64,000 bases of DNA. Origin: an uncultured delta proteobacterium. GTDB taxonomy: Bacteria; Desulfobacterota; Binatia; DP-6. The notes beneath the pieces are model-generated. The model did not search any database. It saw only the letters and a list, made by a program, of their open reading frames with translations, and was not told the origin of the DNA. The stretch spans positions 1,632,001-1,696,000 of the forward strand of contig CAWFFN010000009.1 of the NCBI GenBank assembly GCA_963815115.1, read 5' to 3'. The translations under genes were made by a program, and so were the position numbers. Position 1 is the stretch's first letter. Every line of letters starts with the position of its first letter. Of this stretch, positions 30,878 through 57,225 are shown one piece after another.

Positions 30878-31453
30878 TCACTTGGTCCCGAGTGCGTCCA
30901 GCGCCAGGTTGAGGGAGAGGACGTCGACGACGGGCTCGCCGAGGATGCCCCACTGCCGGCCGCGAGTGTACCGGGCCACCAGCCCCTGGACCGTTGCCTC
31001 GGACAGGCCGCGCGCCCGTGCCACGCGGCCGACCTGATAGCGGGCGGCTGCCGGGCTGATGTTCGGGTCGAGGCCGCTTCCCGAGGCCGTCACGAGGTCC
31101 ACGGGGACGGGGAGCGGGTTGGCCGGATCGGCGGCCTTGAGAGCGTCCAGCCGGCCACGGACCGCGTCGAGCAGCGTGTCGCTCAGCGGGCCCTGGTTCG
31201 ACCCCGACGACGCCGCGCCGTTGTAGGGCTGGGGTGACGTCGCGGAGAGCCGGCTCCAGAAGTACTTCGGGTCGTCGAACGGCTGTCCGATGAGGCTGGA
31301 CCCGACGGCCTTCCCATCCTGCACGAGCACGCTGCCGTTCGCCTGTGCGGGGAAGAATACCTGTGCGACGCCGGTCACGAGGAGCGGATACACGATGCCC
31401 GTGAGCACCGTCATGAGGACGAAGGCGATGAGGGCGGGGCGGAGTTGGTTCAT
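30878..31453 (-). CDS. kdpC: K+-transporting ATPase subunit C (operon 1)
   Basis: [20 protein letters not shown] and [12 protein letters not shown]. Confidence 0.95.
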
Positions 31454-31471
31454 GATCTTCTCCCGGCGCCG

Positions 31472-33562
31472 TCAGGCGAGACCGAGCGCGGACAGCGCCA
31501 TGTCGATGGCCTTGATGCCGATGAAGGGCGCGATGATGCCGCCGAGGCCGTAGACGAGCAGGTTGTCGCGCAGCAGGGTCGAGGCCCCGACGTGCCGGTA
31601 GCGCACGCCGCGCAGCGCGAGCGGGATCAGCGCGATGATGATGAGGGCGTTGAAGATCACCGCCGACAGGATGGCGCTCTGCGGCGTCCTGAGGCCCATC
31701 ACGTTGAGCCTGCTCAGCACCGGATAGGTGCTCGCGAACGCGGCGGGGATGATCGCGAAGTACTTCGCGACGTCGTTGGCGATGCTGAAGGTGGTCAGCG
31801 AGCCGCGGGTCATGAGGAGCTGCTTCCCGATCTCGACGATCTCGATCAGCTTGGTGGGGTTGGAGTCGAGGTCGACCAGGTTGCCGGCTTCCTTGGCAGC
31901 CTGGGTCCCCGTGTTCATGGCGACGGCGACGTCCGCCTGGGCCAGCGCGGGCGCGTCGTTGGTGCCGTCGCCCGTCATGGCGATCAGCCGGCCGCCGCGC
32001 TGATAGTCGCGGATGAGCTCGAGCTTCTTCTCCGGGGTCGCCTGGGCGAGATAATCGTCGACGCCCGCCTCGGCCGCGATGGACGCGGCGGTGAGCGGGT
32101 TGTCGCCGGTGATCATCACCGTCTGGATGCCCATCTCGCGCAGCTCGGCGAAGCGTTCCTTGATGCGCGTCTTCACGATGTCCTTGAGCTGGACGACGCC
32201 CATCACCTGCGCGCCGTCGGCCACCACCAGCGGCGTGCCACCCTCCCGCGCGATCGACTCGACGCTGCGCTCCACCGCGACCGGGAACCGCCCGCCCAGC
32301 GCCCGCACGTGCTCCTCGATCGCGTCCGCGGCCCCCTTGCGCACCTGGCGGCCGTTCAGGTTGACGCCGCTCATGCGGGTCTGCGCGCTGAACGGGACGA
32401 ACGTGGCGCCGAGCTCGTGGACGTTCCGCTCGCGCAGCCCGTACTTCTCCTTGGCGAGCACGACGATGCTCCGGCCTTCCGGCGTCTCGTCGGCGAGGGA
32501 TGCGAGCTGCGCCGCGTCCGCGAGCTTCTCGACCGCGACGCCGTCGATGGGAATGAACGCCGTCGCCTGGCGGTTGCCGAGCGTGATCGTCCCCGTCTTG
32601 TCGAGGAGCAGCACGTCGACGTCGCCCGCCGCCTCCACGGCGCGGCCCGACATGGCGATCACGTTGGCCTGGATCATCCGGTCCATGCCGGCGATGCCGA
32701 TCGCGGACAGCAGGCCGCCGATGGTCGTCGGGATGAGGCAGACGAGGAGGGCGGCGAGCACGGTCATCGTGACCGGGGTGCCCTGACCCACCTCGTTGAC
32801 GCTGTAGATCGAGAACGGGAGCAGGGTGATCGTCGCCAGCAGGAAGATGATCGTGAGGGCGGCGAGGAGGATGTTGAGCGCGATCTCGTTGGGCGTTTTC
32901 TGCCGCGTGGCTCCCTCGACCATCCCGATCATGCGGTCGAGGAAGGTCTCGCCCGGATCGCTCGTGATCCTGATCACGAGCCAGTCGGAGAGGACGCGGG
33001 TCCCGCCGGTGACGGCGCTCCGGTCGCTGCCGGCCTCCCGGATGACCGGGGCACTCTCACCCGTGATCGCGCTCTCGTCGACGGACGCGATCCCGACGAC
33101 GGCCTCGCCGTCGCTCGGGATGAACTCGCCCGCCGCGGCGAAGACGACGTCTCCCTTGCGGAGCTCGGCGCTCGTCACCTGCGTGAAGCGGGCCTGCCGG
33201 GGATCGAAGCCGTTCTCGGGCGTGCGGGGGAGCTTCCGCGCGACGGTGTCGCGGCGCGCCTTGCGCAGCGTGTCGGCCTGGGCCTTGCCGCGGCCCTCGG
33301 CCATGGCCTCCGCGAAGTTCGCGAAGAGGACCGTGAACCAGAGCCAGAGCGACACCGCCAGGATGAAGCCGGCCGGCGCCTCGCCATGGCCGAGCAGCGC
33401 CTGGACGAAGAGCCCCGTCGTCAAGACGCTGCCGACCAGCACGACGAACATCACGGGGTTCTTGATCTGATGGCGGGGGGCGAGCTTGGCGAACGATGCC
33501 GCGATGGCGCCGCGCACGATCTCGGGGTCGAACAGGGGATGGGCTTTGCTGTGCGTCTGCAT
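31472..33562 (-). CDS. kdpB: K+-transporting ATPase subunit B (operon 1)
   Basis: [25 protein letters not shown] and NDVAKYF. Confidence 0.97.
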
Positions 33563-33574
33563 GGGTGTCCTCGA

Positions 33575-35377
33575 TCAAGCGGTCAGCATGAGGTGCTCGA
33601 CGATGGGGCCGAGCGCCAGGGCGGGAATGAACGTGAGCGCACCGACGATGATCACGACGCCGATCAGCATGACGACGAAGAGCGGCGTGTGGGTCGGGAG
33701 CGTCCCGGGGCCCACCGGCACGCGCTTCTTCTGCGCCAGGGAGCCGGCGATGGCGAGCGTCGGGATGGCGAGCCAGAAGCGCGTGAAGAGCATCTCGACG
33801 CCGCCGAGGGCGTTGTAGAAGGGGACGTTCGCCGAGAGGCCGGCGAACGCGCTGCCGTTGTTCCCGCCCTGCGAGCTGAAGGCGTAGAGGATCTCGCTGA
33901 AGCCGTGCGCGCCGGTGTTGGCGCGGCCGGCGAGACCGGCCGCCGTCGTGACACCGAGCGAGGTCAGCAGAAGGATGAACATCGGCGGGATCAGGATGAT
34001 GAGCGCGGCCATCTTCATCTCGTACGCCTCGATCTTCTTCCCGAGGTACTCGGGCGTCCGCCCGACCATGAGGCCGGCGACGAAGACGGCGATGATCGCG
34101 AAGACCAGCATGCCGTACAGCCCGCAGCCGACGCCGCCGAAGATGACCTCGCCGAGCTGGATCATGAAGAGCGGCACCAGGCCGCCGAGCGGGGTGAACG
34201 AGTCGTGCATGGAGTTCACCGACCCGTTCGACGCGGCGGTCGTCGCCGTGGCCCAGAGCGCGGAGTTGGCGACGCCGAAGCGGACCTCCTTGCCCTCCAT
34301 GTTGCCACCGGGCTGGAGGCTGCTCGCGACGGAGTCGACACCGAGGGCCGTGATCCTGGGGTTCCCCTGGTACTCGGCCCACAGGCAGAGGGCGAGGAAC
34401 ACCACGAAGACGACCGTCATGGCCGCGAGCACCGCCCATCCCTGCCTGGTGTCGCCGACCATCGCGCCGAAGGTGTAGCAGAGGGCCGCGCTGATCAGCA
34501 GAATCGCGAGCAGCTCGAAGAAGTTCGAGAGCGGGGTCGGGTTCTCGTAGGGATGCGCCGAGTTGACGTTGAAGAAGCCGCCGCCGTTGGTGCCCATCTG
34601 CTTGATCGCGATCTGCGATGCCGCCGGTCCCATGGGCAGGCTCTGCTCGGTCACGGCCGACGTCTCGGTCTTCGGCTGGCCCTGGTCGTCGAGCACCGGG
34701 TTGCCGTCGTCGTCCTTCACCGGCGTCGTCGCCGTCGTCGCCTGGACGAGCGACACCGTCTTGTAGTCGCTGAAATTCTGCACCACCCCCTGCGACACCA
34801 GGACGACCGCGAGCGCGAGCGAGAGCGGCAGCAGGATGTAGAGGACGCTCCGGGTCAGGTCGACCCAGAAGTTGCCGATGTCGCTGGTCTTGGCGCTCCG
34901 GAATCCGCGGACGAGCGCGACCAGGATGGCCATGCCCGTCGCGGCGGAGACGAAGTTCTGCACCCCCAGGCCCAGCATCTGGGTGAGGTAGCTCATCGTC
35001 GACTCGCCGCCGTACCCCTGCCAGTTCGTGTTGGTCACGAAGCTCGTCGCCGTGTTGAAGGAGGAGTCGGGGGTGACGGCGCTGAAGGCCTGCGGGTTGA
35101 GCGGCAGGACGCCCTGCAGGCGTTGCAGCGCGTAGACGAAGAACACGCCGACCGCGTTGAACAGCAACATCGCGATCGCATACGTCTTCCAGTTCATGCC
35201 CTCGTCCGGACGGACGCCGCACGCCCGGTAGACGAGGCGCTCGATCGGCCCGAGCAGCCGGCCGAGGAACGTCGGCTGGCCCTCGTAGACGCGCGCCATG
35301 AAGCCGCCGAGCGGCTTCACGAGGATGACGAGGACGGCGAGGTAGATACCGACCTGCAAGAACGCGTTTGCGGTCAT
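33575..35377 (-). CDS. kdpA: K+-transporting ATPase subunit A (operon 1)
   Basis: Canonical filter loops NTNWQ, GTNGGG, ASNGS and NNGSA; [11 protein letters not shown]; start overlaps the kdpF stop. Confidence 0.97.
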   Translation of the reverse strand: MTANAFLQVGIYLAVLVILVKPLGGFMARVYEGQPTFLGRLLGPIERLVYRACGVRPDEGMNWKTYAIAMLLFNAVGVFFVYALQRLQGVLPLNPQAFSAVTPDSSFNTATSFVTNTNWQGYGGESTMSYLTQMLGLGVQNFVSAATGMAILVALVRGFRSAKTSDIGNFWVDLTRSVLYILLPLSLALAVVLVSQGVVQNFSDYKTVSLVQATTATTPVKDDDGNPVLDDQGQPKTETSAVTEQSLPMGPAASQIAIKQMGTNGGGFFNVNSAHPYENPTPLSNFFELLAILLISAALCYTFGAMVGDTRQGWAVLAAMTVVFVVFLALCLWAEYQGNPRITALGVDSVASSLQPGGNMEGKEVRFGVANSALWATATTAASNGSVNSMHDSFTPLGGLVPLFMIQLGEVIFGGVGCGLYGMLVFAIIAVFVAGLMVGRTPEYLGKKIEAYEMKMAALIILIPPMFILLLTSLGVTTAAGLAGRANTGAHGFSEILYAFSSQGGNNGSAFAGLSANVPFYNALGGVEMLFTRFWLAIPTLAIAGSLAQKKRVPVGPGTLPTHTPLFVVMLIGVVIIVGALTFIPALALGPIVEHLMLTA

Positions 35378-35466
35378 CAGAACCGCTCCGGCCTGAGAAG
35401 GGCGACGAAGAGATAGACGAAGAGGCCGACCGTCACGATGCCGCCGATGACGTAAAGCACTGACAT
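35377..35466 (-). CDS. kdpF: K+-transporting ATPase subunit F (operon 1)
   Basis: MSVLYVIGGIVTVGLFVYLFVALLRPERF; YL..AL..PERF signature. Confidence 0.92.
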   Translation of the reverse strand: MSVLYVIGGIVTVGLFVYLFVALLRPERF

Positions 35467-35558
35467 CACGAACCTCCCAGGAGGCGGTCGCAGGCCACGA
35501 TGAAGGCCCACGACAGCGTGACGAATCCGATCGTGAGACCGAGGTAGAGAACGTCCAT
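35466..35558 (-). CDS. 30-aa TM microprotein upstream of kdpF1
   Basis: MDVLYLGLTIGFVTLSWAFIVACDRLLGGS; SD GAGGAG; TGATG coupling to kdpF. Confidence 0.8.
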   Translation of the reverse strand: MDVLYLGLTIGFVTLSWAFIVACDRLLGGS

Positions 35559-35941: not shown

Positions 35942-35981
35942 CTACGACGTCGTGACCTCGAAACCTTCGGGCGACGCGAGC

Positions 35982-36269: not shown

Positions 36270-36547
36270 CGCGGGCGCTCCAGCACCGACGGATCCTTGC
36301 CGTGCCGTCGTCGCGCGAGGCGACGAGGGGCGCCGGAGGTGCGCCCGCGCGAGCTCGCCTGCAGCACAAGCTACTAGCTAGCGTGCTATGAAGCAAGTGA
36401 ACGCTCACGGAACGAGCAGCTGCTGCGTACGCGGTGGGCAGCGCTCCCTACGACACGCCGGCGGGCACGTGGGCTGCCAGAAGCCTCCCGCGAGCAGGTG
36501 GCCGTCGTGGTTGAGAAAATCGCCGCGCCTGCCCAGCCATGCATCCG

Positions 36548-36562
36548 CGGCACGCTTTCTGC
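36548..36562 (+). promoter_or_regulatory. Sigma-54 promoter of kdp operon 2
   Basis: CGGCACG-CTTT-CTGC, 36 bp before ATG 36599. Confidence 0.7.
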
Positions 36563-36598
36563 GACGCGGCTCACGGCAATGCGTCAGGAGGTGCGTCG

Positions 36599-36694
36599 AT
36601 GAATCTCGCGGTCTGGTACCCGGCCATGTTCGTGCTCGGCGTGGTGGCGATGGGGATCTGCCTACTGTTCCTCGACGCCTGCGAAAGGATCTGA
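36599..36694 (+). CDS. 31-aa TM microprotein upstream of kdpF2
   Basis: MNLAVWYPAMFVLGVVAMGICLLFLDACERI; SD AGGAGGT. Confidence 0.8.
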   Translation: MNLAVWYPAMFVLGVVAMGICLLFLDACERI

Positions 36695-36703
36695 GGAGAA
36701 CCC

Positions 36704-36784
36704 ATGCTCATACTCACCGCTGCGGTGTCCGCGTTCCTCTTCGTCTATCTGTTCACGGCGTTGATCCGCCCCGAATGGTTCTGA
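36704..36784 (+). CDS. kdpF: K+-transporting ATPase subunit F (operon 2)
   Basis: MLILTAAVSAFLFVYLFTALIRPEWF; SD GAGGAG. Confidence 0.9.
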   Translation: MLILTAAVSAFLFVYLFTALIRPEWF

Positions 36785-36796
36785 GAGAGGCCGACG

Positions 36797-38614
36797 ATGT
36801 GGTCACTTCCGATCTCGATGCTGGTGGCGACGACGCTGCTGGCGATCCCGCTCAGCCGCTACCTCGCGTGGGTGATGGACGGCCGCTACCGGCCGCGCGG
36901 TCCGCTCCGGGCGATCGAACTCGCGCTCGATAGCGGGCCGCAGACCTGGAAGCAGTACACGGCGGCACTGCTGATCTTCAACACCGTACTGTTCGTGTTC
37001 GGCTTCCTGGTCCTGGCGCTCCAGCCGTGGATGCCGCTCAACGACCTGGGACGGGGCGCGCTGGCGCCGTCGACCATCTTTCACACCGTCGTGTCGTTCA
37101 TGACGAACACCGACGTGCAGCACTACTCGGGCGACCAGCACTTCTCGATCTTCAGCCAGATCGTCTTCGGGGTCGCGAACTTCTTCCTCTCGGCGTCGAT
37201 CGGATTCTGCGCGCTCACCGCCATCATCCGGGCCGTGCGCGGCGGCCCGACGGTCGGCAACTTCTTCGTCGACATGTGGCGGGTCGTGGCCTACATGTTC
37301 CTTCCCATCGCCTTCGTTCTGTCGCTCGTCTGGGTGCAGCAGGGGAGCCCGATGACCTTCAAGGGCGCGTATCAGGTCTCGACGCTCGAGGCCGGAGCGA
37401 TGGGCAGCGCGGACGACGGGACACCGAAGCAGCAGAACATCGCCGTCGGACCGCTCGGGGTCTTTCTCCCGATGAAGCAGCTCGGGACCAACGGCGGCGG
37501 CTTCTACGGCATGAACTCCGCGCACCCGTTCGAGAACCCGACGGTGACGACGAATGTCCTCTCATGTGTGGGGATGATGCTCTTCCCGTTCGCGCTGGTC
37601 CTCATGTTCGGGCGCATGCTGGGGCGACTGCGACATGCTTGGGTGATCTTCTCGGTGATGATGCTCTTCATGATCGGGACGATCGTCTGGACCGTCTACT
37701 TCGACACATTGCAGCCGAACCCCGCGCTGACGGCGCACCCGGCCGGCGCGACGTACGACCTGCCAGATCCGACGGCGCCCGGCGGGAAACAGACGATCAC
37801 GATCCCGTCGGTTGCGGGTCTCCCGGTCGATCAGCGTCTCGGCAACCTCGAGGGCAAGGAGCTGCGCTTCGGGACCGCCGCCGGCGCGACCTTCGCGGCG
37901 CTCACGGTCGACGTCACCGACGGGGCGGTCAACTGCGAGCACGACAGCCTCAACCCGCTCGCGGGATTCGGTCCCTACGTCGGCATGTGGCTCAACTGCT
38001 TCTTCGGGGGCAAGGGCGTCGGGATGATCAACATGCTGCTCTTCGTGATCATCGGCATCTTCGTCGCCGGTCAGATGGTGGGGCGGACCCCGGAGTATCT
38101 CGGCAAGAAGATCGGCGCCCGGGAGATGAAGCTCGCGATGATCGCGCTGCTCATCCATCCGATCATGATCCTGTGGCCCACGGGGCTCTTCGCGGCGACG
38201 AGCTGGGGGCTGAACGCCGTGAGCAATCCCGGCGCCCACGGGTTCTCTCAGATCCTGTACCAGTTCTCCTCCTCGTCGGCGAACAATGGCTCCGCATTCG
38301 ACGGCCTCGGCGTGGCATACGGGTTCGCCGCGAATCAGACGCCCGCGCCGTCGGCTGTGCCATTCGACATCGCCAGCGGACTCGTGATCGTCATCAGCCG
38401 CTTCATCCCGATCATCGCGCCCATCGCGATGGCCGCCAGCCTCGGGGCGAAGAAGTCCGCGCCGTTCGGTCTCGGGACGCTGCGTGACGACACGGGCACG
38501 TTCGCGGGGCTGCTCATCGGGACGATCGTGATCATCGGCGCCCTCCTCTTCCTGCCGGTGGCGGCGCTTGCCCCGTTCGCCGAGCACCTCGGCCCGATCC
38601 CGTTCGGCGGCTGA
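36797..38614 (+). CDS. kdpA: Divergent KdpA (operon 2) with acidic filter substitutions
   Basis: [27 protein letters not shown] and ANNGSA retained; first loop NTDVQ; third loop [15 protein letters not shown]. Confidence 0.93.
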
Positions 38615-38627
38615 AAGGAGCACCACG

Positions 38628-40808
38628 ATGAACCGGTCCAACGTTGCCATCCCCCTCGAGCAGGAGCCGCCGTCAGCGCCGGGGATGCCCCGGCCGGCGC
38701 GCCGGATCCGGCGCGCCGACCTGCTGGGGCCCGAGCTCGTCCGCGCGGCGCTGGTCCGCTCGGTCACGATGCTCCGACCCGACGTGCAATGGGCGAATCC
38801 CGTCATGTTCTGCGTCGAGGTCGGCGCCGTCCTGACGGCGATCTTCGCCGTCGCCGCGCTGCTCGGGCAGGGCGGACAGGCACCCGTCACCTACCTGGCC
38901 GCCCTCGACCTCTGGCTCTGGGCGACGGTTCTCTTCGCCAACTTCGCCACCGCGCTCGCCGAGGCGCGCGGCCAGGCGCAAGCCGAGTCGCTCCGCCGCA
39001 CGCGGCGCGACACGCCGGCGTACCGGCTGCTGAGGAACGGCTCGGTCGAGCCGACGACGTCGACCGAGCTCCGAGTGGGCGATCTCGTGGTCGTCGAGGC
39101 GAACCAGATCATCCCGGGCGACGGCGAGGTCGTCGAGGGAATCGCGTCGGTCGACGAGTCGGCGATCACGGGCGAGTCGGCGCCGGTCATCCGTGAGGCC
39201 GGCGGTGACCGGTCCGGGGTCACGGGCGGGACCATCGTGCGCTCGGACCGGATCGTCGTCCGCATCACCGCCCAGACGGGCGAGTCGTTCCTCGACCGCA
39301 TGATCGCGCTCGTCGAGGGCGCCATCCGACAGCGGACGCCGAACGAGATCGCGCTGACGCTCGTGCTGTCGGCCTTCACCCTGATCTTCCTCATCGTCGT
39401 CGTGCCGCTCTGGCCGATGGCGTGGAATGCGGAAAACTACATGACGGCGTATCTGGGGCGTCCGGAGCCGCTGCACAGCCTCGGGACGGACGTGCCGACG
39501 CTCGTGGCGCTCCTGGTCTGTCTCATCCCGACCACGATCGGCGCGCTGCTGGCCGCGATCGGCATCGCCGGCATGGACCGCGCGCTCCAGGCGAACATCC
39601 TCGCGAAGAGCGGCAAGGCCGTCGAGACGGCCGGTGACGTGGATACGGTCCTGCTCGACAAGACCGGGACGATCACGATCGGCAACCGGCACGCGACCGA
39701 GTTCGTTCCCGTCGGGGAATTCACCGCGCTCGAGGTCGGCGAGCTCGCGGCGGCCGCGTCCGTGGCCGACGAGACCCCCGAGGGGAAGTCGATCGTGCGG
39801 CTCTTCTTGAAGCAGGCCGCCACCGTGACGAAAGGGCCGGTCGACCTGGCTTCGGCTCCCCGCGACGCCGAGGTGGTCCCGTTCACCGCACAGACGCGGA
39901 TGAGCGGCGTCGACCTGCCCGACGGTCAGCGCCTCAGGAAAGGAGCGCCGGACGCGGTGATCGCACTCGTCCGTCGGCAGAACGGCACGGTGCCGCCCGG
40001 GATCGAGGACCACGTGCGCGCCGTCGCCACGCGTGGGGCAACACCGTTGCTCGTGGCGCAGGGCGCGCGCATCGTGGGCATCGTCGTCCTCGAGGACATC
40101 CTGAAGCCCGGCATCCAGGAGCGGTTCGCGCGGCTGCGGAAGATGGGGCTCCGCACCGTGATGATCACCGGCGACAATCCGCTCACCGCCGCGACGATCG
40201 CGGAGCAGGCAGGGGTCGACGACTTCATCGCCGAGGCGACGCCCGAGGCCAAGCTCGCCTACATCAGGAAGGAGCAGGCCGACGGCAAGCTGGTGGCGAT
40301 GATGGGCGACGGCACGAACGACGCGCCCGCGCTCGCGCAGGCGGACGTCGGCGTCGCCATGAACTCCGGCACGCAGGCCGCCAAGGAAGCCGGCAACATG
40401 GTCGACCTCGACAGCGACCCGACGAAGGTGATCGAGGTCGTCGAGATCGGCAAGCAGCTCCTGATGACCCGCGGGGCGCTCACGACGTTCTCGGTCGCGA
40501 ACGACGTCGCCAAGTATTTCGCGATCGTCCCGGCGCTCTTCGCCGGCACGCTGCCGTGGCTCAAGGCGATCGACGTCATGCACCTGCACTCGCCGACATC
40601 CGCGATCCTGTCGGCGGTGATCTTCAACGCACTCATCATCCCCCTTCTCATCCCGGTCGCGCTTCGTGGCGTGAGCTACCGGCCGCTGGGGGCGGACGCG
40701 CTCCTGCGGCGGAACCTCATGGTGTGGGGAGTCGGCGGCGTCGTCCTGCCGTTCATCGGCATCAAGCTGATCGACGTCGTGATGGTTGGCCTGCACCTCG
40801 TTGCGTGA
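38628..40808 (+). CDS. kdpB: K+-transporting ATPase subunit B (operon 2)
   Basis: TGES, CLIPTT, DKTGT, GDGTND and NDVAKYF; extra loop [12 protein letters not shown].. Confidence 0.95.
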
Positions 40809-40830
40809 CGATCGGAAAGGCGTGAGCACG

Positions 40831-41859
40831 ATGGTACGACTGATCTCGAAGAGCCTTGTCCTGCTGGCGGTCACCGTGGTCCTCTGCTGCGGCATCTATC
40901 CCCTCGCCGTGTGGGCCGTCGCGCAGGCCGTGTTCCCGTTCCAGGCGAACGGCAGCCTGCTCACCGGCCCCGACGGCACGGTCGTCGGCTCGAAGCTGAT
41001 CGCCCAGCCGTTCACCAAGGACGAGTACTTCCAGCCGCGGCCGTCGGCGCCGTCGTACGACGCCTCCGCCTCGGCGTCGTCCGCCCTGGCGCCGTCGAAC
41101 TACCTCCTCCGCGACCGCGTCGCGCGGGCGCTCGGGCCGATCGCCAGGTACAAGGAGGGCGCGAAGAGCGGGCAGCTCGTCGGGCCGGACGTGGAGGCAT
41201 GGTTCCGGGAGGATCGTTTCCAGGGCGAGCCGCATCTGGTCGCGCAGTGGGCCGACGCGCACAACGCGCTCGCGCAGGCGTGGGTGAAGGCAGACCCGGG
41301 GAATGCCGCCGCCGTCGATGCGTGGGCGAAGGAGCACGCCGACGCGGTCGCGGCATGGGTCGAGGCGAACCCGGCAACGCCGGTGCCCGCTGCGACCGAC
41401 CTCGCGGTCGTGTTCTTCGACGACTGGTCGGCGACGAAGCCCGGGACGTGGCCGTCGCTGGTGGAGCACGCGGGTCCGGACGGGACGACGGTGAAGGCCG
41501 TCGAGCCGGTGCACGAAGGCACGGAGATCCAGTCGGTCTTCTTCGAGATGTGGCGCGAGGACCATCCGGACGTCGCGCTCGTCGACGTGCCCGCCGACCT
41601 CGTGACCACCTCGGGATCCGGCCTCGATCCGGACATCACCCTCGAGAACGCGCGCTATCAGCTCGACCGGGTGGCAGCCGCCTGGGCGCAGGACACGAAG
41701 CGCGACCCGGACGCCGTCCGCAAGGAGATCGAAACCGTGCTCGCGGAGAAGGCACACGCGCCGCTGGGCGGGCTCTGGGGCGTCGACGTGGTCAACGTCC
41801 TCGAGCTCAACCTCGAGCTGCGCAGGCGGTACGGGGAGCCACCAGCGCCGGCGGCGTGA
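40831..41859 (+). CDS. kdpC: Long-form KdpC (operon 2) with large insertion
   Basis: QANGS, GSKLIAQPF, YFQPRPSA and DLVTTSGSGLDP; 342 aa versus about 190 aa for KdpC1 and KdpC3. Confidence 0.88.
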   Translation: MVRLISKSLVLLAVTVVLCCGIYPLAVWAVAQAVFPFQANGSLLTGPDGTVVGSKLIAQPFTKDEYFQPRPSAPSYDASASASSALAPSNYLLRDRVARALGPIARYKEGAKSGQLVGPDVEAWFREDRFQGEPHLVAQWADAHNALAQAWVKADPGNAAAVDAWAKEHADAVAAWVEANPATPVPAATDLAVVFFDDWSATKPGTWPSLVEHAGPDGTTVKAVEPVHEGTEIQSVFFEMWREDHPDVALVDVPADLVTTSGSGLDPDITLENARYQLDRVAAAWAQDTKRDPDAVRKEIETVLAEKAHAPLGGLWGVDVVNVLELNLELRRRYGEPPAPAA

Positions 41860-41907
41860 GCGGCGGCCGTGGACCATGCCGCGGTGGAGCATGATGACGT
41901 CCCGCGA

Positions 41908-42228
41908 ATGATCGGTTGGCTCGGCACCCTGGTCCTCGCCGCGACGCTGGAGATCGCCGGCGTCGCGGCGATGCGAAGCGGCCTCGTGCGCTCGGCGATC
42001 GCTCCGCTCCTGCTCGGCGGCTCGGCGCTCGTGGCGTACGGACTCGTCGTGAACTCGAATCGTCTGACGGACTTCGGCCGGTTGATGGGGACGTACATCG
42101 TCGTCTTCTTCCTGGTGAGCCAGCTGACGAGCGCCCTCGTCTTCGGCGAGCGGCCGGTGCCGAGCCTCGTGCTCGGCGGCGCGCTGATCGTCATCGGCGG
42201 TCTCGTGATCCAGCTCGGCGCGGCGTAG
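41908..42228 (+). CDS. Small 4-TM SMR/YnfA-like membrane protein
   Basis: LAATLE in TM1, FGRLMGTY and GGALIVIGG. Confidence 0.7.
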   Translation: MIGWLGTLVLAATLEIAGVAAMRSGLVRSAIAPLLLGGSALVAYGLVVNSNRLTDFGRLMGTYIVVFFLVSQLTSALVFGERPVPSLVLGGALIVIGGLVIQLGAA

Positions 42229-42308: not shown

Positions 42309-42309
42309 A

Positions 42310-42674: not shown

Positions 42675-45389
42675 ATGGTCTCCAACAAGACGATCCCGAC
42701 CCGCGAGCGGACGCGCGTCCAGAAGTCACCGAAGTCACCGAGACGCCGCGAGCCGGCCCGCTGGATGCCGGGCGCTGCCTCGCCGCTTCTCCTGGAGGTG
42801 TCGGACGCGACGGTTCCGGCGGTGTTGCGTCTCCTCGAGGCGCACGAGAGCGGGCTGCCGGCATCCGACGTCGAGCCCCGCCTGGCCAGGTTCGGCCGCA
42901 ACGAGGTGGCCGCCGAGAAGCCGCCGGCATGGTACCGGATGCTGCTCCGGAACCTCCGGAACCCGTTCGTCGTGGTGCTGATGCTGCTGGGCGCCGTCTC
43001 CCTCACGACGGGCGACCTGCGGGCAGGCATCGTCGTCGGGGTGATGGTCGTCGTCAGCGTGCTCATGCGGTTCGTCTCCGAGTACCGCTCGACCCGCGCC
43101 GCCGAGGCCCTGCGGACCATGGTGCGGACGACGGCGACGGTGATCCGCCAGGTGGCCCGCGCGGAGTCCGACGGCACCATGCGGTTCCATGCCGAGAAGA
43201 CGGAGGTGCCGTTCGAGGCCCTCGTCCCCGGCGATCTGATCCACCTCTCGGCCGGCGATATGGTCCCCGCCGATCTCCGTCTGATCACCGCGAAGGACCT
43301 CTTCGTCAGCCAGTCTGCGCTGACCGGCGAGTCGATGCCGGTCGAGAAGACCGACACGGTCGCGGCCGCCGGCCGATCCCTCGATGCCCTGGGGCGACCC
43401 AACCTGTGCTTCATGGGCACGAGCGTCGTGAGCGGCTCGGGCCTGGGCCTCGCGGTGGCCACCGGGCGCCGCGCCTACTTCGGAGCGATGGCGTCCAGCG
43501 TGCTCGGCCGACGGAGCCTCACGAGCTTCGACCGAGGCGTCAACGCGGTGAGCTGGGTTCTGATCCGCTTCATGGCGGTCATGGTGCCCGTCGTCTTCCT
43601 CGTCAACGGGATGCTGAAGGGCGACTGGGTCGAGGCATTCCTGTTCGGGATCGCCGTCGCGGTGGGCCTCACCCCCGAGATGCTGCCGATGATCGTGACC
43701 GCGAACCTGGCGAAGGGCGCCTGGATGATAGCGAGGCACAAGTGCGTCGTGAAGCGGCTGAGCGCCATCCAGAACCTGGGCGCGATGGACGTCTGCTGCA
43801 CCGACAAGACCGGCACGCTGACCGAGGACAAGATCGTCCTCGAGCGCTACCTCGACCCCCACGGGCGAGACAGCAATCGCGTCCTCGAGCTGGCCTACCT
43901 GAACAGCTACTGGCAGACGGGGCTCAAGAACCTGCTCGATCGCGCGGTGCTCGAGCACGTGCAGCTGAACACGCAGCTCGACCTGCCGCGCGGTTACCGC
44001 AAGGTCGACGAGATCCCGTTCGACTTCGACCGCCGGCGGATGTCCGTGGTGGTCGCCCGGGCGGATGCGGCGGAGCACACGCTCATCTGCAAGGGCGCCG
44101 TCGAGGAACTCCTCAAGGTGTCCTCCCGCGTGGAGGAGGGCGGTCGGCTCGTTCCGCTGGCCGCAGAGAGCCGCCGCCGCGCCGAGAAGCTCGCCCGCCG
44201 GCTCAACATGGAGGGGCTGCGGGTGATCGCGGTCGGCTCTCGCGTCTTCGGTGCGCAGCGGACCGCGTACGGCGTCGCGGACGAGAGCGACCTCGTCCTG
44301 GCGGGGTTCATTGCCTTCCTCGACCCGCCGAAGCAGACCGCCGCACCGGCCATCCGGGCGCTCCGCGAGCACGGGGTCGCGGTGAAGGTCATCACCGGCG
44401 ACAACGACATCGTCACCCGGCGGGTCTGCCGGCTGGTCGGCCTGGAGATCGAGCGGCTGCTCCTGGGCCCCGAGGTCGAGATGCTGGACGACGACGACCT
44501 CGCGGCCGCGGCCGAGCAGGTGACCGTCTTCGCCAAGGTGGCCCCGATGCAGAAGGCCCGCATCATCCGGGCGCTGCAGCGCACCGGCCACACGGTCGGC
44601 TATCTCGGTGACGGCATCAACGACGCCGCAGCGCTGCGCGACGCCGACGTGGGCATCTCCGTCGACACCGCCGCGGACATCGCGAGGGAGTCGGCCGACA
44701 TCATCATGCTCGAGAAGAGCCTGCTGGTCCTCGCGGACGGGATCGCGAAGGGCCGCGAGGTGTACGGCAACATCATCAAGTACATCAAGATGACGGCCAG
44801 CAGTAACTTCGGGAACGTCTTCTCGGTGCTCGTCGCGAGCGCGCTTCTCCCGTTCCTGCCAATGCTGCCGATCCACCTGTTGATCCAGAACCTGCTCTAC
44901 GACTTCTCGCAGCTCGCGATCCCGTGGGACCGGATGGACGCGGAGTTCCTGGCACGGCCCCGGCGGTGGGACCCGAGCGGCATCGCGCGCTTCATGCTCT
45001 GCATGGGTCCGGTGTCGTCCGTCTTCGACGTCCTCACGTTCGTCGTGCTGTGGTTCGTCTTCCACGCGACCTCGCCGGCGCAGCAGTCCCTGTTTCAGTC
45101 GGGGTGGTTCGTCGAGGGCCTGCTGACGCAGACGCTCATCGTGCACGTCATCCGGACGCGGAAGGTGCCCTTCGTCGAGAGCCGGGCGTCGCTGCCCGTG
45201 ATGGTCACCACGGCCGCCGTCATGGCGGTCGGCGTCTGTGTTCCCTTCACGCCGTTCGGGCACGCCGTCGGGCTGGTGTCATTGCCCGGTGCCTACTTTC
45301 CGTGGCTCGGCGCGCTCCTTCTCGGGTACTGCCTGCTGGCCCAGGCGGTGAAGCGCTGGTACACGGCCCGATCCGACACCTGGCTGTGA
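42675..45389 (+). CDS. mgtA: Magnesium-translocating P-type ATPase
   Basis: LTGES, GLTPEMLP, DKTGTLT, YLNSYWQTGLKNLLD, PFDFDRRRMSV, SSNFGN and NLLYD. Confidence 0.96.
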   Translation: MVSNKTIPTRERTRVQKSPKSPRRREPARWMPGAASPLLLEVSDATVPAVLRLLEAHESGLPASDVEPRLARFGRNEVAAEKPPAWYRMLLRNLRNPFVVVLMLLGAVSLTTGDLRAGIVVGVMVVVSVLMRFVSEYRSTRAAEALRTMVRTTATVIRQVARAESDGTMRFHAEKTEVPFEALVPGDLIHLSAGDMVPADLRLITAKDLFVSQSALTGESMPVEKTDTVAAAGRSLDALGRPNLCFMGTSVVSGSGLGLAVATGRRAYFGAMASSVLGRRSLTSFDRGVNAVSWVLIRFMAVMVPVVFLVNGMLKGDWVEAFLFGIAVAVGLTPEMLPMIVTANLAKGAWMIARHKCVVKRLSAIQNLGAMDVCCTDKTGTLTEDKIVLERYLDPHGRDSNRVLELAYLNSYWQTGLKNLLDRAVLEHVQLNTQLDLPRGYRKVDEIPFDFDRRRMSVVVARADAAEHTLICKGAVEELLKVSSRVEEGGRLVPLAAESRRRAEKLARRLNMEGLRVIAVGSRVFGAQRTAYGVADESDLVLAGFIAFLDPPKQTAAPAIRALREHGVAVKVITGDNDIVTRRVCRLVGLEIERLLLGPEVEMLDDDDLAAAAEQVTVFAKVAPMQKARIIRALQRTGHTVGYLGDGINDAAALRDADVGISVDTAADIARESADIIMLEKSLLVLADGIAKGREVYGNIIKYIKMTASSNFGNVFSVLVASALLPFLPMLPIHLLIQNLLYDFSQLAIPWDRMDAEFLARPRRWDPSGIARFMLCMGPVSSVFDVLTFVVLWFVFHATSPAQQSLFQSGWFVEGLLTQTLIVHVIRTRKVPFVESRASLPVMVTTAAVMAVGVCVPFTPFGHAVGLVSLPGAYFPWLGALLLGYCLLAQAVKRWYTARSDTWL

Positions 45390-45417
45390 CGAGCAACATC
45401 CAGGAAAGGAGGAGCCC

Positions 45418-46131
45418 ATGGCCTGGCAGGTGTTCATGCTGCGGGTGGGCGTCGCGGCGCTCCTGGGCGCGGTGATCGGTCTCGAGCGCCAGGTTCGACA
45501 GCGCCTCGCGGGTCTCCGTACCAACGCCCTGGTCTCGATCGGCGCGGCGGCGTTCGTCGCCCTGGCGGCCGCCACGCCGGCCGAGAGCAGCCCCACCCGG
45601 GTGGCCGCCCAGGTGGTCTCGGGGATCGGGTTCCTTGGGGCGGGCGTGATCTTCCGCGAGGGGCTGACCGTACGCGGGTTCAACACCGCGGCGACCCTGT
45701 GGTGCTCCGGCGCCGTCGGCTCGCTCGCGGGATCCGGGATGTACGGCTCCGGGGGAATCACGGCCGTGCTGGCGTTGCTGGCGAATACGCTCCTGCGGCC
45801 GGTGGCGCGCCGCCTCGACCGGGACCCCACGGCCGCGACGGAGGTCGAGGTGCGCTATCGCATCGCCGCCACCTGCGTCGAGGCTGATGAGCCACACATC
45901 CGCAGCCTGCTGCTGCAGGGCGTGATGCACGCGGCCCTGGTCCTCCAGAGCATCCGGAGCACCACGCTCGTCGGCGAGGGGGGCGAGCCCGCGCGGGCCC
46001 GCGTGCGTGCGGAGGTCGTGACCGAGGGGCGGAGCGACCGCGCCATCGAGCAGGTCGTGGGGCGGCTCAGCCTCGAGCCTGGCGTGTCCGAGGCGTCGTG
46101 GCGGATCGCCGATCCGGCCGTCACCGATTGA
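45418..46131 (+). CDS. mgtC: MgtC/SapB family protein with ACT-like C-domain
   Basis: IGLERQ..AGLRTNALV, RVAAQVVSGIGFLGAG and NTAATLW. Confidence 0.93.
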   Translation: MAWQVFMLRVGVAALLGAVIGLERQVRQRLAGLRTNALVSIGAAAFVALAAATPAESSPTRVAAQVVSGIGFLGAGVIFREGLTVRGFNTAATLWCSGAVGSLAGSGMYGSGGITAVLALLANTLLRPVARRLDRDPTAATEVEVRYRIAATCVEADEPHIRSLLLQGVMHAALVLQSIRSTTLVGEGGEPARARVRAEVVTEGRSDRAIEQVVGRLSLEPGVSEASWRIADPAVTD

Positions 46132-46142
46132 TCGGAGGAGTC

Positions 46143-47267: not shown

Positions 47268-47298
47268 TGGACGGACAGCGAGGTGTGTGGTCGTGGTA

Positions 47299-52931: not shown

Positions 52932-53105
52932 ATGACCTTCTCGGCGATCGTCTGGGGGCTTCTGGCGCTGGCATACGGTGTGAGCACGATCCAGCTCTTT
53001 CGCCAGGGGTGGGAGAGCCCGCCCCGGGGCCGGGTCCTGCCCTTCGTCCGCAACGCCTCGCCGCCGAGGGTAGTGCACCACCAACACACCCTGACAGCCG
53101 CTTGA
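52932..53105 (+). CDS. 57-aa single-TM small protein, first gene of kdp3 (possibly leaderless)
   Basis: MTFSAIVWGLLALAYGVSTIQLFRQGWESPPRGRVLPFVRN..; aligns with 28881-29093; ATG lies near the expected +1. Confidence 0.6.
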   Translation: MTFSAIVWGLLALAYGVSTIQLFRQGWESPPRGRVLPFVRNASPPRVVHHQHTLTAA

Positions 53106-53116
53106 AGGACCCTGCG

Positions 53117-53197
53117 ATGGACCTCGTCTGCCTCGCCCTCGCCGGTGGCTTCCTCGCCCTGTCGTGGGGCCTCGTCGTCCTCTGCGAGCGTCTCTGA
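53117..53197 (+). CDS. 26-aa TM microprotein upstream of kdpF3
   Basis: MDLVCLALAGGFLALSWGLVVLCERL; SD AAGGA. Confidence 0.8.
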   Translation: MDLVCLALAGGFLALSWGLVVLCERL

Positions 53198-53210
53198 AGG
53201 AGCACACCGG

Positions 53211-53300
53211 ATGACCCTGCTCTACGCCATCGGCGGAGTACTCTCCGTCGGCCTCCTCCTCTACCTCTTCGTCGCGCTCCTGGCGCCCGAGCGATTCTGA
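53211..53300 (+). CDS. kdpF: K+-transporting ATPase subunit F (operon 3)
   Basis: [29 protein letters not shown]; TGATG overlap with kdpA. Confidence 0.92.
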
Positions 53301-55102: not shown

Positions 55103-55119
55103 CGCGCGAGGGAACCGAG

Positions 55120-57210
<2,091 letters not shown>

Positions 57211-57225
57211 TCGGAGATCGTTCTC

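What the first reader, a model, noticed from the sequence alone, without database searches (positions are those of the whole stretch)
36797..38614. KdpA2 has an acidified selectivity filter and sits upstream of Mg/Mn transport genes, suggesting a possible non-K+ Kdp pump
Seen: KdpA1 and KdpA3 have NTNWQ and ATT(A/G)[12 protein letters not shown]; KdpA2 has NTDVQ (GAC at 37112) and [16 protein letters not shown], adding four acidic residues in or next to pore loops 1 and 3. GTNGGG, NNGSA and the KdpB2 CLIPTT and D..K sites are intact. Established: these loops form the KdpA filter, and single changes such as E. coli Q116R or G232D alter affinity or selectivity. The operon runs co-directionally into mgtA-mgtC-VIT1-MnoP-like genes. 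Inference: altered selectivity (NH4+, Na+, Rb/Cs or a divalent ion) or adaptation to acid conditions.
Basis: partly seen in the sequence, partly recalled or inferred. Interest (0 to 1): 0.8.

Follow-up and report, generated by a model that had tools for sequence, protein, structure and literature searches.

The report
Divergent acidic-mouthed Kdp potassium pump
KdpA2 belongs to a large, horizontally spread branch of Kdp potassium pumps with extra acidic residues around the pore mouth, but the ion-binding parts are unchanged and the neighbouring magnesium genes are a one-genome coincidence, so it is most likely still a potassium pump.

Summary
KdpA2 (36797-38614) reads NTDVQ and [15 protein letters not shown] where KdpA1 and KdpA3 read NTNWQ and TT(A/G)[12 protein letters not shown].

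It is not a private oddity. KdpA2 sits in a discrete, strongly supported KdpA clade found in at least 11 phyla, mostly soil and peat MAGs.

- About five extra negative charges on the four pore loops.
- A vestibule charge swap (E. coli E370 to N, V376 to K).
- Insertions in KdpA and KdpB at sites I infer to be periplasmic.
- A 150-residue acidic domain inside KdpC.
- A conserved 31-residue peptide upstream of kdpF.

Evidence for a K+-like substrate:
- The residues whose backbone carbonyls form the S3 site are kept.
- Every KdpB ion-site residue I checked is identical to E. coli in 74 of 74.

The link to Mg/Mn transport fails. mgtC is near 0 of 80 related loci, VIT1 and the porin near 1 of 80 each, and no mgtA hit exceeded cross-hit level. 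None lies beside either relative's copy. Recurrent neighbours are KdpD/KdpE-type and sigma-54 regulators.

Most likely this is a specialised K+ pump. Changed monovalent selectivity is not excluded.

The parts
36485..36561 (+). Two candidate sigma-54-type promoter motifs (GG-N10-GC) upstream of the operon, at 36485-36500 and 36547-36561. Leads only.
   Evidence: scores the first 9 of 12. I read the second by eye. The window-wide pattern count is not above chance: 5 found against 2.92 expected, and 13 of 100 shuffles reach 5.
36599..36694 (+). Small ORF of 31 codons encoding a hydrophobic one-helix peptide that ends in ACERI. A conserved companion of this Kdp clade.
   Evidence: tblastn E<1e-3 in 78 of 80 loci. 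A profile search finds it in 79 sources including the window. There are 6 invariant columns in 40 sequences. No Pfam or NCBIfam family. The complex model with KdpA2 scores 0.83 against a best control of 0.00.
36704..36784 (+). kdpF2, 26 codons.
   Evidence: PF09604 E 4.3e-6. TIGR02115 34.2 bits, cut-off 26.85. Found in 76 of 80 loci.
36797..38614 (+). kdpA2, 605 codons. The variant channel subunit, of the 'DD' subtype (Asp at E. coli positions 114 and 344).
38628..40808 (+). kdpB2, the P-type ATPase subunit. The start is taken at the first ATG of the frame; a later ATG at 38685 is also possible.
   Evidence: TIGR01497 973.7 bits, cut-off 527.9. All ion-site and catalytic residues checked are identical to E. 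coli. N-terminus read.
40831..41859 (+). kdpC2, 342 codons. KdpC with a folded 150-residue acidic insert (25 D/E, 8 K/R, 8 W) in its periplasmic domain.
   Evidence: PF02669 183 bits in two stretches. Below the NCBIfam KdpC cut-offs. Insert conserved in 70 of 80 loci. Alignment. In the whole-protein model the insert has pLDDT mostly 82-97. Charge count.
41869..42228 (+). Small membrane ORF of at most 119 codons, in the same frame as kdpC2. Weakly YnfA-like. Not a conserved part of the system.
   Evidence: The GC3 pattern continues in this frame. NF002586 scores 25 bits against a cut-off of 114. Found in 2 of 80 loci.
42675..49500 (+). mgtA (42675-45389), mgtC (45418-46131), VIT1-domain gene (46098-47267) and OprB-family porin (47245-49500). 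Neighbours, judged not to be part of the Kdp system.
   Evidence: for identity. for lack of conserved linkage. A 446-base gap with no coding GC3 pattern lies before mgtA. No Rfam family in the window.
30878..35558 (-). Canonical kdp1 operon, used as comparator: a 30-codon small ORF (35469-35558), kdpF1, kdpA1 (33575-35347), kdpB1 (31472-33562) and kdpC1 (30878-31453).
53102..57798 (+). Canonical kdp3 operon, used as comparator: a small ORF (53102-53197), kdpF3, kdpA3 (53300-55102), kdpB3 with an in-frame TAG at 56677-56679, and kdpC3 (57226-57798).

Best explanation
kdp2 encodes an intact P-type pump made of KdpF2, KdpA2, KdpB2 and KdpC2, plus a 31-residue peptide. It belongs to a distinct, horizontally spread subfamily of KdpFABC.

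Proposed mechanism. The cation still enters through a four-loop KdpA filter. It binds at the carbonyl-lined S3 site, passes through the intramembrane tunnel, and is handed to the canonical site of KdpB for ATP-driven release into the cell. The substrate is therefore most likely K+.

What differs is the outside face and the vestibule:
- The pore mouth carries about five more carboxylates.
- KdpC carries an extra acidic domain. In E. coli, KdpC's periplasmic domain lies next to the filter.
- KdpA and KdpB have extra loops at positions I infer to be periplasmic.
- The vestibule charge is rearranged (Glu370 lost, Lys at 376 gained, Asp at 341 gained).

I infer that this suite tunes cation capture, apparent affinity or pH range. 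A plausible case is keeping a cation-attracting negative mouth in acidic, ion-poor soil and peat water.

I also infer that the 'DD' subtype to which KdpA2 belongs is an accessory pump working beside a canonical Kdp, here kdp1.

Shown: family membership, conservation, residue patterns and gene neighbourhoods. Inferred: substrate, the pH or ionic-strength role, and the topology of the insertions.
For: A discrete clade.
- Identity to KdpA2 among 189 aligned KdpAs is bimodal. 95 are at 60% or more, 94 are below 45%, and none lie between.
- At 50% clustering, the next full-length representatives after 71% and 60% drop to 46% or less.
- The clade is one starred branch (100, stem 0.57) in a FastTree of 106 rows.

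Filter core kept.
- G232, G345, G468, Q116 and R493 are present in 95 of 95.
- N112, T113, T230, N466 and N467 are present in 95 of 95, and S343 is T in 94 of 95.
- The backbone carbonyls of these residues and of residue 344 coordinate K+ at S3 (passages of bioRxiv 10.1101/2025.03.04.641403).

KdpB unchanged. L72, T75, S162, F232, V260, C261, I263, P264, T265, D307, D583, K586 and N624 are identical to E. coli in 74 of 74 clade KdpBs.

K+-type regulation nearby. Among the 80 loci there is a sigma-54 response regulator in 21, a KdpD N-terminal/Usp protein in 14, full KdpD in 5, and an OmpR-type regulator in 14. Classical kdpABC-kdpD-kdpE order with the variant pump occurs in L044, L047 and L056.

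The variant can be the only KdpA. This holds in 19 of 79 genomes, including a chromosome-level Syntrophobacter record.

Charge at the mouth matters for K+ capture in E. coli. A negative entrance attracts K+, Q116E behaves like wild type, and Q116R lowers affinity (PMC12629597 section 6 and Discussion passages).

KdpC lies next to the filter and has been proposed to raise K+ affinity (PMC6255902 passages).

Acidophiles carry redundant, horizontally acquired Kdp copies (PMC8886135 passages).

Source labels. 19 of the 80 loci carry SPRUCE, fen_ or BOG isolate labels. That these mean peatland is my recollection.
Against: - No transport data exist for any member, so K+ is inferred.
- The vestibule changes point the other way for affinity. 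In E. coli, E370Q raises the ATPase Km about 30-fold and E370K to about 75 mM. The clade has N at 370 in 95 of 95 and Lys at 376 in 94 of 95.
- The DD subtype is almost never the sole KdpA: 1 of 33 DD genomes against 18 of 46 other variant genomes (related genomes are not independent). This fits a new role as well as it fits a new pH range.
- The habitat argument has no control. I did not compare against the sources of canonical KdpAs.
- Six new basic residues arose alongside the acidic ones. Whole-protein net charge is +3.7 against +1.3, so some of the new carboxylates may be salt-bridged rather than free.
- P-II genes lie beside the operon in 7 of 80 loci, a weak hint towards ammonium.
Confidence: 0.65

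Rival explanations
1. The pump has shifted or broadened monovalent selectivity, for example NH4+, Rb+/Cs+ or Na+. The DD-type KdpA would give the shared KdpB/KdpC machinery a second substrate.
For: - A single Asp in the filter of E. coli KdpA (G232D) admits Rb+ and NH4+. By my alignment of the loops, Asp106 sits at the loop-1 position that matches G232 of loop 2.
- DD-type KdpAs nearly always coexist with a canonical KdpA: 32 of 33 genomes counting split copies.
- In several loci a DD-type kdpA stands as a second kdpA beside one kdpB-kdpC set. The order is A-B-C-A' in L019 and L054, and A-A'-B-C in L064.
- P-II genes lie next to the operon in 7 of 80 loci.
- The S4 and vestibule residues are changed: S378 to V in 95 of 95, E370 to N in 95 of 95, and V376 to K in 94 of 95.
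Against: - D at 114 also occurs in 19 of 94 canonical KdpAs.
- All three central glycines and the S3 ligand residues are intact.
- D344 pairs with Q227 as N344 does in canonical pumps. The clade shows Q,D in 34 and M,C in 51, never M,D. The commonest canonical pair is Q,N, in 31.
- The KdpB site is identical to E. coli.
- Neighbouring regulators are of KdpD/KdpE type. No ammonium-assimilation genes recur.
Confidence: 0.2
2. It is a divalent-cation pump (Mg2+, Mn2+ or Ca2+) that works with the downstream mgtA-mgtC-VIT1-porin genes.
For: - It is co-directional with genuine mgtA and mgtC genes.
- It has many carboxylates at the pore mouth and on KdpC.
Against: - The linkage is unique to this genome. 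mgtC is near 0 of 80 loci, VIT1 and OprB near 1 of 80 each, and neither relative's copy has them.
- Lys586, Asp583 and Phe232 of KdpB are kept in 74 of 74.
- The vestibule is more positive, not less.
- KdpB2 scores 57.3 bits against the Mg2+-ATPase model TIGR01524, cut-off 610.75.
- A 446-base non-coding gap and an unrelated small ORF separate kdpC2 from mgtA.
Confidence: 0.03
3. kdp2 is a decaying or non-functional extra copy.
For: - The same-genus relative G050 has its variant kdpA in three tblastn pieces and its kdpB in two.
- The window's own kdp3 carries a nonsense codon and frameshifted regulators.
Against: - All five kdp2 frames are open, with GC3 of 0.92-0.93 in kdpA2, kdpB2 and kdpC2.
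- Catalytic and ion-site residues are intact.
- The clade keeps 69-79% identity across phyla.
Confidence: 0.03

Closest known systems
Escherichia coli KdpFABC (solved structures such as 5MRW, 6HRA, 7BH1)
   Same: - Same four subunit families and the same P-loop architecture.
- Same S3 ligand residues.
- Identical KdpB canonical site, phosphorylation Asp and TGES Ser.
- KdpA2 matches chain 6hra_A at E 3.3e-91. The KdpC2 model matches seven KdpC chains at E<=0.001 with TMt 0.64-0.69.
   Different: - Only 39% identity.
- W115 is aliphatic.
- A341D, M350E and A472D, plus N114D and C344D in this subtype.
- E370N, V376K and S378V in the vestibule.
- Two insertions in KdpA, one in KdpB and 150 residues in KdpC.
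- An extra conserved 31-residue peptide.
E. coli KdpA point mutants Q116R, Q116E, G232D and E370Q/K (PMC12629597; sections 6-10 read)
   Same: They show that charge at the filter mouth and in the vestibule sets apparent K+ affinity, and that an Asp in a filter loop can relax selectivity. These are the same kinds of positions that differ in KdpA2.
   Different: - Those are single laboratory changes in a canonical background.
- Here a co-adapted suite is fixed by natural selection.
- None of the exact natural substitutions (N114D, C344D, A341D, M350E, A472D, V376K) turned up in the passages I read or in the search.
Redundant, horizontally acquired Kdp copies of acidophiles (Acidithiobacillia; PMC8886135, passages read)
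   Same: Several kdp clusters per genome, signs of horizontal transfer, and a proposed role in pH homeostasis through K+ uptake.
   Different: - That paper does not describe a sequence-distinct KdpA subfamily.
- I did not test whether those copies belong to this clade.
Trk/Ktr/HKT superfamily of K+ transporters (recalled, not tested here)
   Same: Same four-fold M1-P-M2 channel design. Changes at the filter glycine are known to switch K+/Na+ preference.
   Different: KdpA2 keeps the glycines of loops 2-4. Its changes lie beside and behind the filter and at the mouth.

Membership tests
KdpA (PF03814 / TIGR00680) | Profile score above the curated cut-offs | tested here: met
   PF03814 597 bits against 22.6. 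TIGR00680 480.4 against 387.7, compared with 761.6 for KdpA1.
KdpA (PF03814 / TIGR00680) | Four pore loops with the central Gly of loops 2-4, and the residues whose carbonyls form the S3 site | tested here: met
   G232, G345 and G468 kept. N112, T113, T230, N466 and N467 kept. S343 is T and C344 is D, where the backbone is the ligand.
KdpA, as characterised in E. coli | Glu370 at the tunnel entrance with Arg493 opposite | tested here: not met
   Asn at 370 in KdpA2 and in 95 of 95 clade members; Arg493 is kept; Lys appears at 376. This is not a strict family criterion: 65 of 94 canonical KdpAs have Glu.
KdpB (TIGR01497, P1A ATPase) | Profile score; phosphorylated Asp; TGES Ser; M4 Pro motif; Asp583/Lys586; Asn624; Thr75; Phe232 | tested here: met
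   973.7 bits against 527.9. All listed residues are identical in KdpB2 and in 74 of 74 clade KdpBs.
KdpC (PF02669; NCBIfam KdpC equivalogs) | Profile score above cut-off over one contiguous domain | tested here: inconclusive
   Pfam is met (183.2 bits) but in two stretches. The NCBIfam equivalogs are missed: 166 against 178, and 144.4 against 152.55. The cause is the 150-residue insert. The fold matches KdpC chains.
KdpF (PF09604 / TIGR02115) | Profile score above cut-off | tested here: met
   26.9 bits against 21.2. 34.2 against 26.85.
High-affinity, K+-selective Kdp pump (function) | K+-stimulated ATPase and transport with micromolar Km and exclusion of Rb+, NH4+ and Na+ | not testable with these tools
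No RNA holder was listed.
Mg2+-transporting P-type ATPase (TIGR01524), as a reading of KdpB2 | Profile score above cut-off | tested here: not met
   57.3 bits against 610.75 for KdpB2. The neighbouring MgtA scores 1288.2.
Functional gene cluster kdp2 + mgtA-mgtC-VIT1-porin | Linkage conserved in other genomes | tested here: not met
   mgtC in 0 of 80 loci; VIT1 and OprB in 1 of 80 each; MgtA hits are cross-hits at 24% median identity. Absent next to the operon in G050 and G089 in the stretches fetched.

The most novel reading that the evidence does not exclude
The clade is a second 'type' of Kdp pump. It has five membrane subunits and a built-on acidic periplasmic cap, made of the KdpC insert and the KdpA/KdpB loops. 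Its DD-type KdpA is an exchangeable channel module: in some genomes two different kdpA genes flank a single kdpB-kdpC pair. The module would give the same ATPase a second working regime. That could be ATP-driven uptake of another monovalent cation such as NH4+, or K+ capture at a pH and ionic strength where canonical Kdp fails.
Probability: 0.2. Interest if true: 0.8.

Novelty: new variant of a known kind. Interest (0 to 1): 0.55.

Why it matters
Kdp is the textbook case of a channel fused functionally to a P-type pump. All mechanistic work that I saw rests on the E. coli enzyme.

A natural, widespread subfamily that rewrites exactly the positions being probed by mutagenesis offers ready-made test cases. 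Those positions are the mouth charge, the vestibule Glu370 and the KdpC ectodomain. The questions they bear on are how capture, selectivity and coupling are set, and what KdpC does.

Ecologically, it may explain how soil and peat bacteria of many phyla hold K+, and with it pH homeostasis, in acidic, ion-poor water.

For annotation, the point is practical. These genes are all named plain 'KdpA', and the adjacency to mgtA here should not be read as function.

Tried and rejected
Earlier findings.

RNA families and signals.
- Rfam found no family in the window.
- The sigma-70 and terminator scans of 35300-49600 were at chance level.
- The window-wide sigma-54 pattern count was not above chance: 5 against 2.92 expected.
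- My first upstream sigma-54 scan had an indexing error and is void.
- The corrected scan gives 17 of 81 upstream regions at 9 of 12 or more, against 146 of 3000 random windows. That suggests a subset of the operons, no more.

Expression. No RNA holder was listed for 36599-42700. I did not lay reads.

Names. Cluster members carry only generic KdpA names.

KdpC insert.
- The Atlas gave one hit at 0.75, which is a lead only.
- With the insert folded alone (mean pLDDT 69.6), Foldseek against the PDB found 0 matches at E<=0.001.
- VIA-align over 48,161 chains gave a best Z of 3.6 and none at 5 or more.
- This shows neither that the fold is new nor what it does.

Literature. Five searches turned up no paper on this KdpA subfamily, the long KdpC or the extra peptide. 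The library lacks most subscription journals, and supplements were closed, so this is not proof of absence.

ORFs rejected as non-coding by their GC3 pattern: 35909-36391, 36388-36933 and 41916-42374 (no Pfam hit).

Complex prediction, limits. KdpF was not in the job. The peptide may therefore have been placed in KdpF's groove by likeness to solved KdpFABC. Binding to KdpB was not tested.
Full report
**What is in the window.**
The window is about 70% G+C. It lies in a 6.9 Mb genome of 12 contigs, and all three of that genome's KdpA matches fall inside it.
- kdp1 is on the minus strand: kdpA1 33575-35347, kdpB1 31472-33562, kdpC1 30878-31453.
- kdp3 is on the plus strand: kdpA3 53300-55102, kdpC3 57226-57798.
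- Both are canonical. KdpA1 and KdpA3 are 80% identical to each other and score 812 and 825 bits on PF03814.
- kdp2 is the subject. It comprises a 31-codon ORF (36599-36694), kdpF2 (36704-36784), kdpA2 (36797-38614), kdpB2 (38628-40808) and kdpC2 (40831-41859).
- KdpA2 is 43% identical to KdpA1 and scores 597 bits.

- GAC is at 37112-37114.
- Loop 1 reads NTDVQ against NTNWQ. Loop 3 reads [15 protein letters not shown] against TT(A/G)[18 protein letters not shown] and NNGSA are intact.
- The HMMER alignment to the solved E. coli chain gives these equivalences: D106 = N114, V107 = W115, D372 = A341, D375 = C344, E381 = M350.

**It is a clade trait, not a private change.**
- The 119 closest database clusters are 74-91% identical to KdpA2. 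Nearly all are 601-610 residues long, apart from two shorter ones of 579 and 598.
- Of the 120 sequences including the window's own, 116 read NTD(L/V)Q. At least 90 read T-D-G in loop 3 and at least 8 read T-C-G. 21 did not fit my search pattern.
- In the library clustered at 50% identity, full-length representatives fall from 71% and 60% identity straight to 46% or less.
- A scan of one genome per prokaryote species found 394 encoding stretches. The best 80 loci (69-79% identity) come from at least 11 named phyla:
  - Nitrospirota 14
  - Thermodesulfobacteriota 10
  - Verrucomicrobiota 9
  - Acidobacteriota 8
  - Binatota 7
  - Bacteroidota 6
  - Ignavibacteriota, Pseudomonadota and Planctomycetota 3 each
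  - Margulisiibacteriota and Myxococcota 1 each
  - 15 unplaced
- By their titles, nearly all are metagenome-assembled genomes. The exceptions are a Burkholderia sp. record and a Myxococcales record.
- I aligned 189 KdpAs: the window's three, E. coli, the KdpAs of the loci, and the full-length representatives (520-660 residues). Identity to KdpA2 is bimodal, with 95 at 60% or more and 94 below 45%.
- A FastTree of the 95 plus 11 canonical outgroup rows puts the clade on one starred branch (100, length 0.57).
- Such high identity across phyla, together with patchy presence among the window's own kin, indicates horizontal spread. Among 40 relatives, the variant is in 2: a same-genus genome and a same-class genome.

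**What defines the clade.** Numbering is E. coli's, and counts are out of 95 clade members.

| Position | Clade | Canonical (of 94) |
|---|---|---|
| W115 | L/I/V, 95 | W 75 |
| A341 | D, 89 | D 9 |
| M350 | E, 93 | not among the six commonest residues listed |
| A472 | D 93, E 2 | A 49, E 9 |
| N482 | D, about 95% | |
| T522 | D, about 91% | |
| E370 | N, 95 | E 65 |
| V376 | K, 94 | K 2, both without an acidic 370 |
| S378 | V, 95 | |

- The summed net charge of the four pore-loop regions is -7.5 +/- 1.0 in the clade against -2.7 +/- 1.3 in canonical KdpAs. KdpA2 is -8. KdpA1, KdpA3 and E. coli are -2.
- Six basic residues were gained as well. Whole-protein net charge is +3.7 against +1.3, so some of the new carboxylates may be paired.
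- KdpA carries two clade-specific insertions. One lies before the loop-3 pore helix and one after loop 4.
- KdpB carries one, after E. coli residue 238.
- From the established topology of these families I infer that all three are periplasmic.
- KdpC carries a 150-residue insert (25 D/E, 8 K/R, 8 W) that is conserved in 70 of 80 loci.
- In the whole-protein model the insert folds confidently, as helices plus a beta-hairpin, with pLDDT mostly 82-97.

- D at 114 occurs in 63 of 95 clade members and also in 19 of 94 canonical KdpAs.
- D at 344 occurs in 34 of 95 clade members and 2 of 94 canonical KdpAs.
- The combined states at positions 114 and 344 are N,C in 32, D,C in 28, D,D in 34 and D,A in 1. 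N,D never occurs.
- 33 of the 34 D,D rows, with 3 D,C rows, form one derived starred group (support 96) that spans seven named phyla. One further D,D row lies elsewhere in the tree.
- Position 344 covaries with position 227. In the clade, M,C occurs in 51, Q,D in 34 and Q,C in 8, and never M,D. In canonical KdpAs, Q,N is the commonest pair (31), and it is the pair in KdpA1 and KdpA3.
- I read D375 as an Asn-to-Asp swap within a conserved side-chain pair behind loops 2 and 3, not as a carboxylate in the ion path. This is inferred from covariation, not from coordinates.

**The ion-handling core is unchanged.**
- The S3 site is formed by backbone carbonyls of N112, T113, T230, S343, C344, N466 and N467 (passages of bioRxiv 10.1101/2025.03.04.641403).
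- Five of these residues are invariant in the clade. S343 is T and 344 is C or D.
- The central glycines of loops 2-4, Q116 and R493 are kept in 95 of 95.
- In KdpB, every residue I took from PMC12629597 (sections 8-10) is identical to E. coli in 74 of 74 clade proteins. These were compared with 8 canonical KdpBs. The residues are:
  - Site ligands V260, C261, I263, T265 and N624.
  - P264.
  - The essential D583 and K586.
  - The exit-site residues T75 and L72.
  - The tunnel constriction F232.
  - D307 and S162.
- A built-in lysine and a dewetted hydrophobic tunnel are hard to reconcile with a divalent substrate.

**The Mg/Mn neighbourhood is not conserved.**
- mgtA is genuine (TIGR01524, 1288 bits), as are mgtC, a VIT1-domain gene and an OprB-family porin.
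- tblastn of the window's proteins against the 80 loci gives: MgtC in 0 of 80, VIT1 in 1 and the porin in 1. The MgtA hits have 24% median identity, which I read as cross-hits to KdpB.
- The same-genus relative G050 has the small ORF, kdpF, kdpA, kdpB and long kdpC, but none of these genes in the 14 kb fetched beyond kdpC.
- The same-class relative G089 has a KdpD N-terminal gene there instead.
- In the window, kdpC2 is followed by a small YnfA-like ORF found in only 2 of 80 loci. A 446-base stretch without coding GC3 pattern then precedes mgtA.
- Read-through transcription into mgtA was not tested.

**What does recur beside the clade's operons.** These counts come from unbiased clustering of ORFs of 80 codons or more in the 80 loci, with Pfam run on one representative per cluster.
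- Sigma-54 response regulators in 21 loci.
- KdpD N-terminal/Usp proteins in 14 loci, and full KdpD in 5.
- OmpR-type regulators in 14 loci.
- BBP2 porins in 12 loci.
- A canonical short kdpC in 9 loci.
- P-II in 7 loci.
- 20 loci hold more than one KdpA-cluster ORF (a canonical KdpA or a second variant copy).

**Co-occurrence with canonical KdpA.**
- I searched PF03814 in the 79 genomes holding the 80 loci. I called a match canonical or variant by its bit score: 688 or more against 582-642. This split is my own, modelled on the window's 812/825 against 597.
- 53 genomes have an intact canonical KdpA, 7 have only split or partial canonical pieces, and 19 have the variant alone. The second call used E<=1e-60.
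- The variant-alone genomes include a chromosome-level Syntrophobacter record.
- By subtype: of 33 D,D genomes, 27 have an intact canonical copy, 5 a split one and 1 none. Of the other 46, the counts are 26, 2 and 18.
- Related genomes are not independent and MAGs may be incomplete.
- The basal subtypes can evidently be an organism's only Kdp. The D,D subtype, which includes KdpA2, behaves as an add-on.

**Reading.**
- The simplest account is a K+ pump whose outer face and vestibule have been re-engineered.
- E. coli work shows that negative charge at the filter entrance attracts K+ and sets apparent affinity. Q116E behaves like wild type, Q116R has a Km in the millimolar range, and Q116H is pH-dependent (PMC12629597 section 6 and Discussion passages).
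- KdpC's ectodomain lies close to the filter and has been proposed to raise K+ affinity, like the beta subunits of other P-type ATPases (PMC6255902 passages).
- More carboxylates on the loops and on a KdpC add-on would keep a cation-attracting surface where protons compete.
- Acidophiles are reported to hold redundant, transferred Kdp copies for pH homeostasis (PMC8886135 passages).
- 19 of 80 loci carry SPRUCE, fen_ or BOG labels. I recall these as peatland projects. There is no habitat control.
- Against a simple 'higher affinity' story stands the vestibule. Loss of Glu370 alone costs E. coli Kdp about 30-fold in Km, and a lysine at that site about 3000-fold.
- So kinetic properties cannot be predicted, and a changed monovalent preference remains open at about 0.2.

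**The extra peptide.**
- The 31-codon ORF is found in 78 of 80 loci by tblastn and in 79 sources, the window included, by a profile. It matches no Pfam or NCBIfam family.
- It has six invariant columns in 40 sequences and a conserved C-terminal Cys-acidic-Lys-Ile motif.
- It travels with kdpF. The pair lies before kdpA in most loci. It lies between kdpA and kdpB in L020, L024, L034 and L037. It lies before kdpB in loci with the order B-C-A, such as L006.
- The canonical kdp1 and kdp3 operons have a similarly placed small ORF with a similar end. The clade profile did not list it at E<=0.01.
- A complex model of KdpA2 with the peptide, both given as 40-row alignments, supports binding but does not show it:
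  - The score is 0.83 and the best of 3 controls is 0.00.
  - In calibration this mark was reached by 58 of 80 solved complexes and 2 of 110 mismatched pairs. Those counts hold only roughly here, because my own alignments were used.
  - The runs agree in at least 97% of contacts, and the partner's pLDDT is at least 86.
  - The peptide is placed against KdpA2 residues 52-74, 88-99, 442-449 and 511-544.
- KdpF was not included in the job, so the pass may reflect likeness to KdpF in solved KdpFABC.

**Novelty.**
- Five full-text searches found no description of this subfamily, the long KdpC or the peptide.
- Databases name the proteins plain KdpA.
- I rate it a new variant of a known kind. It is a real and interesting finding for Kdp mechanism and soil physiology, but the headline idea of a non-K+, Mg/Mn-linked pump is not supported.

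Noticed in passing
window 36599-36694 (+); also 35469-35558 (-) and 53102-53197 (+): A conserved small hydrophobic ORF of about 30 codons precedes kdpF in all three kdp operons. The kdp2 version defines a family present in 79 sources, with no Pfam or NCBIfam model. A complex model with KdpA2 scores 0.83 against a best control of 0.00. It may be a fifth Kdp subunit.
   Followed up: partly
window 56677-56679; 58926-61746; 61685-63301: kdpB3 has an in-frame TAG just before the [11 protein letters not shown] motif. The downstream kdpD and the sigma-54 response regulator are each spread over two reading frames. kdp3 and its regulators look decayed, unless these are assembly errors.
   Followed up: partly
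L019, L054, L064; also L023, L027, L030, L026: Some genomes place a second, D,D-type kdpA beside a single kdpB-kdpC set. The orders are A-B-C-A' and A-A'-B-C. In Bacteroidota it sits after an intervening regulator and porin. This suggests alternative channel subunits for one ATPase.
   Followed up: partly
L097 (G050, same genus), about 14055-19304: The relative's variant operon is 86-95% identical. Its kdpA aligns in three pieces and its kdpB in two, which means frameshifts or assembly errors.
   Followed up: no
window 35641-35655 (-), 52907-52921 (+), 36485-36561 (+): Sigma-54-type -24/-12 motifs lie upstream of kdp1 and kdp3, with weaker ones upstream of kdp2. An intact sigma-54 response regulator lies at 27301-28842. 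In related loci, 17 of 81 upstream regions reach a score of 9 of 12, against 146 of 3000 random windows.
   Followed up: partly
L039, L040, L049, L050, L062, L071, L082: P-II family genes lie next to the variant kdp operon or its KdpD-N gene in 7 of 80 loci, all from Nitrospirota and Thermodesulfobacteriota.
   Followed up: no
window 41869-42228 (+): A small membrane ORF directly after kdpC2 has coding GC3 pattern and is weakly YnfA-like (25 bits against a cut-off of 114). It is present in only 2 of 80 related loci.
   Followed up: partly
protein P0130 (representative, 572 aa): A separate KdpA lineage, 41% identical to KdpA2, shares L115, N370, K376, V378 and E472 but lacks D341 and E350. The vestibule swap may be older than the clade, or it may have arisen twice.
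   Followed up: no
window 46098-47267 (+): The VIT1-domain protein has about 170 extra N-terminal residues with no Pfam hit. Its annotated start overlaps the end of mgtC, so the true start is uncertain.
   Followed up: no
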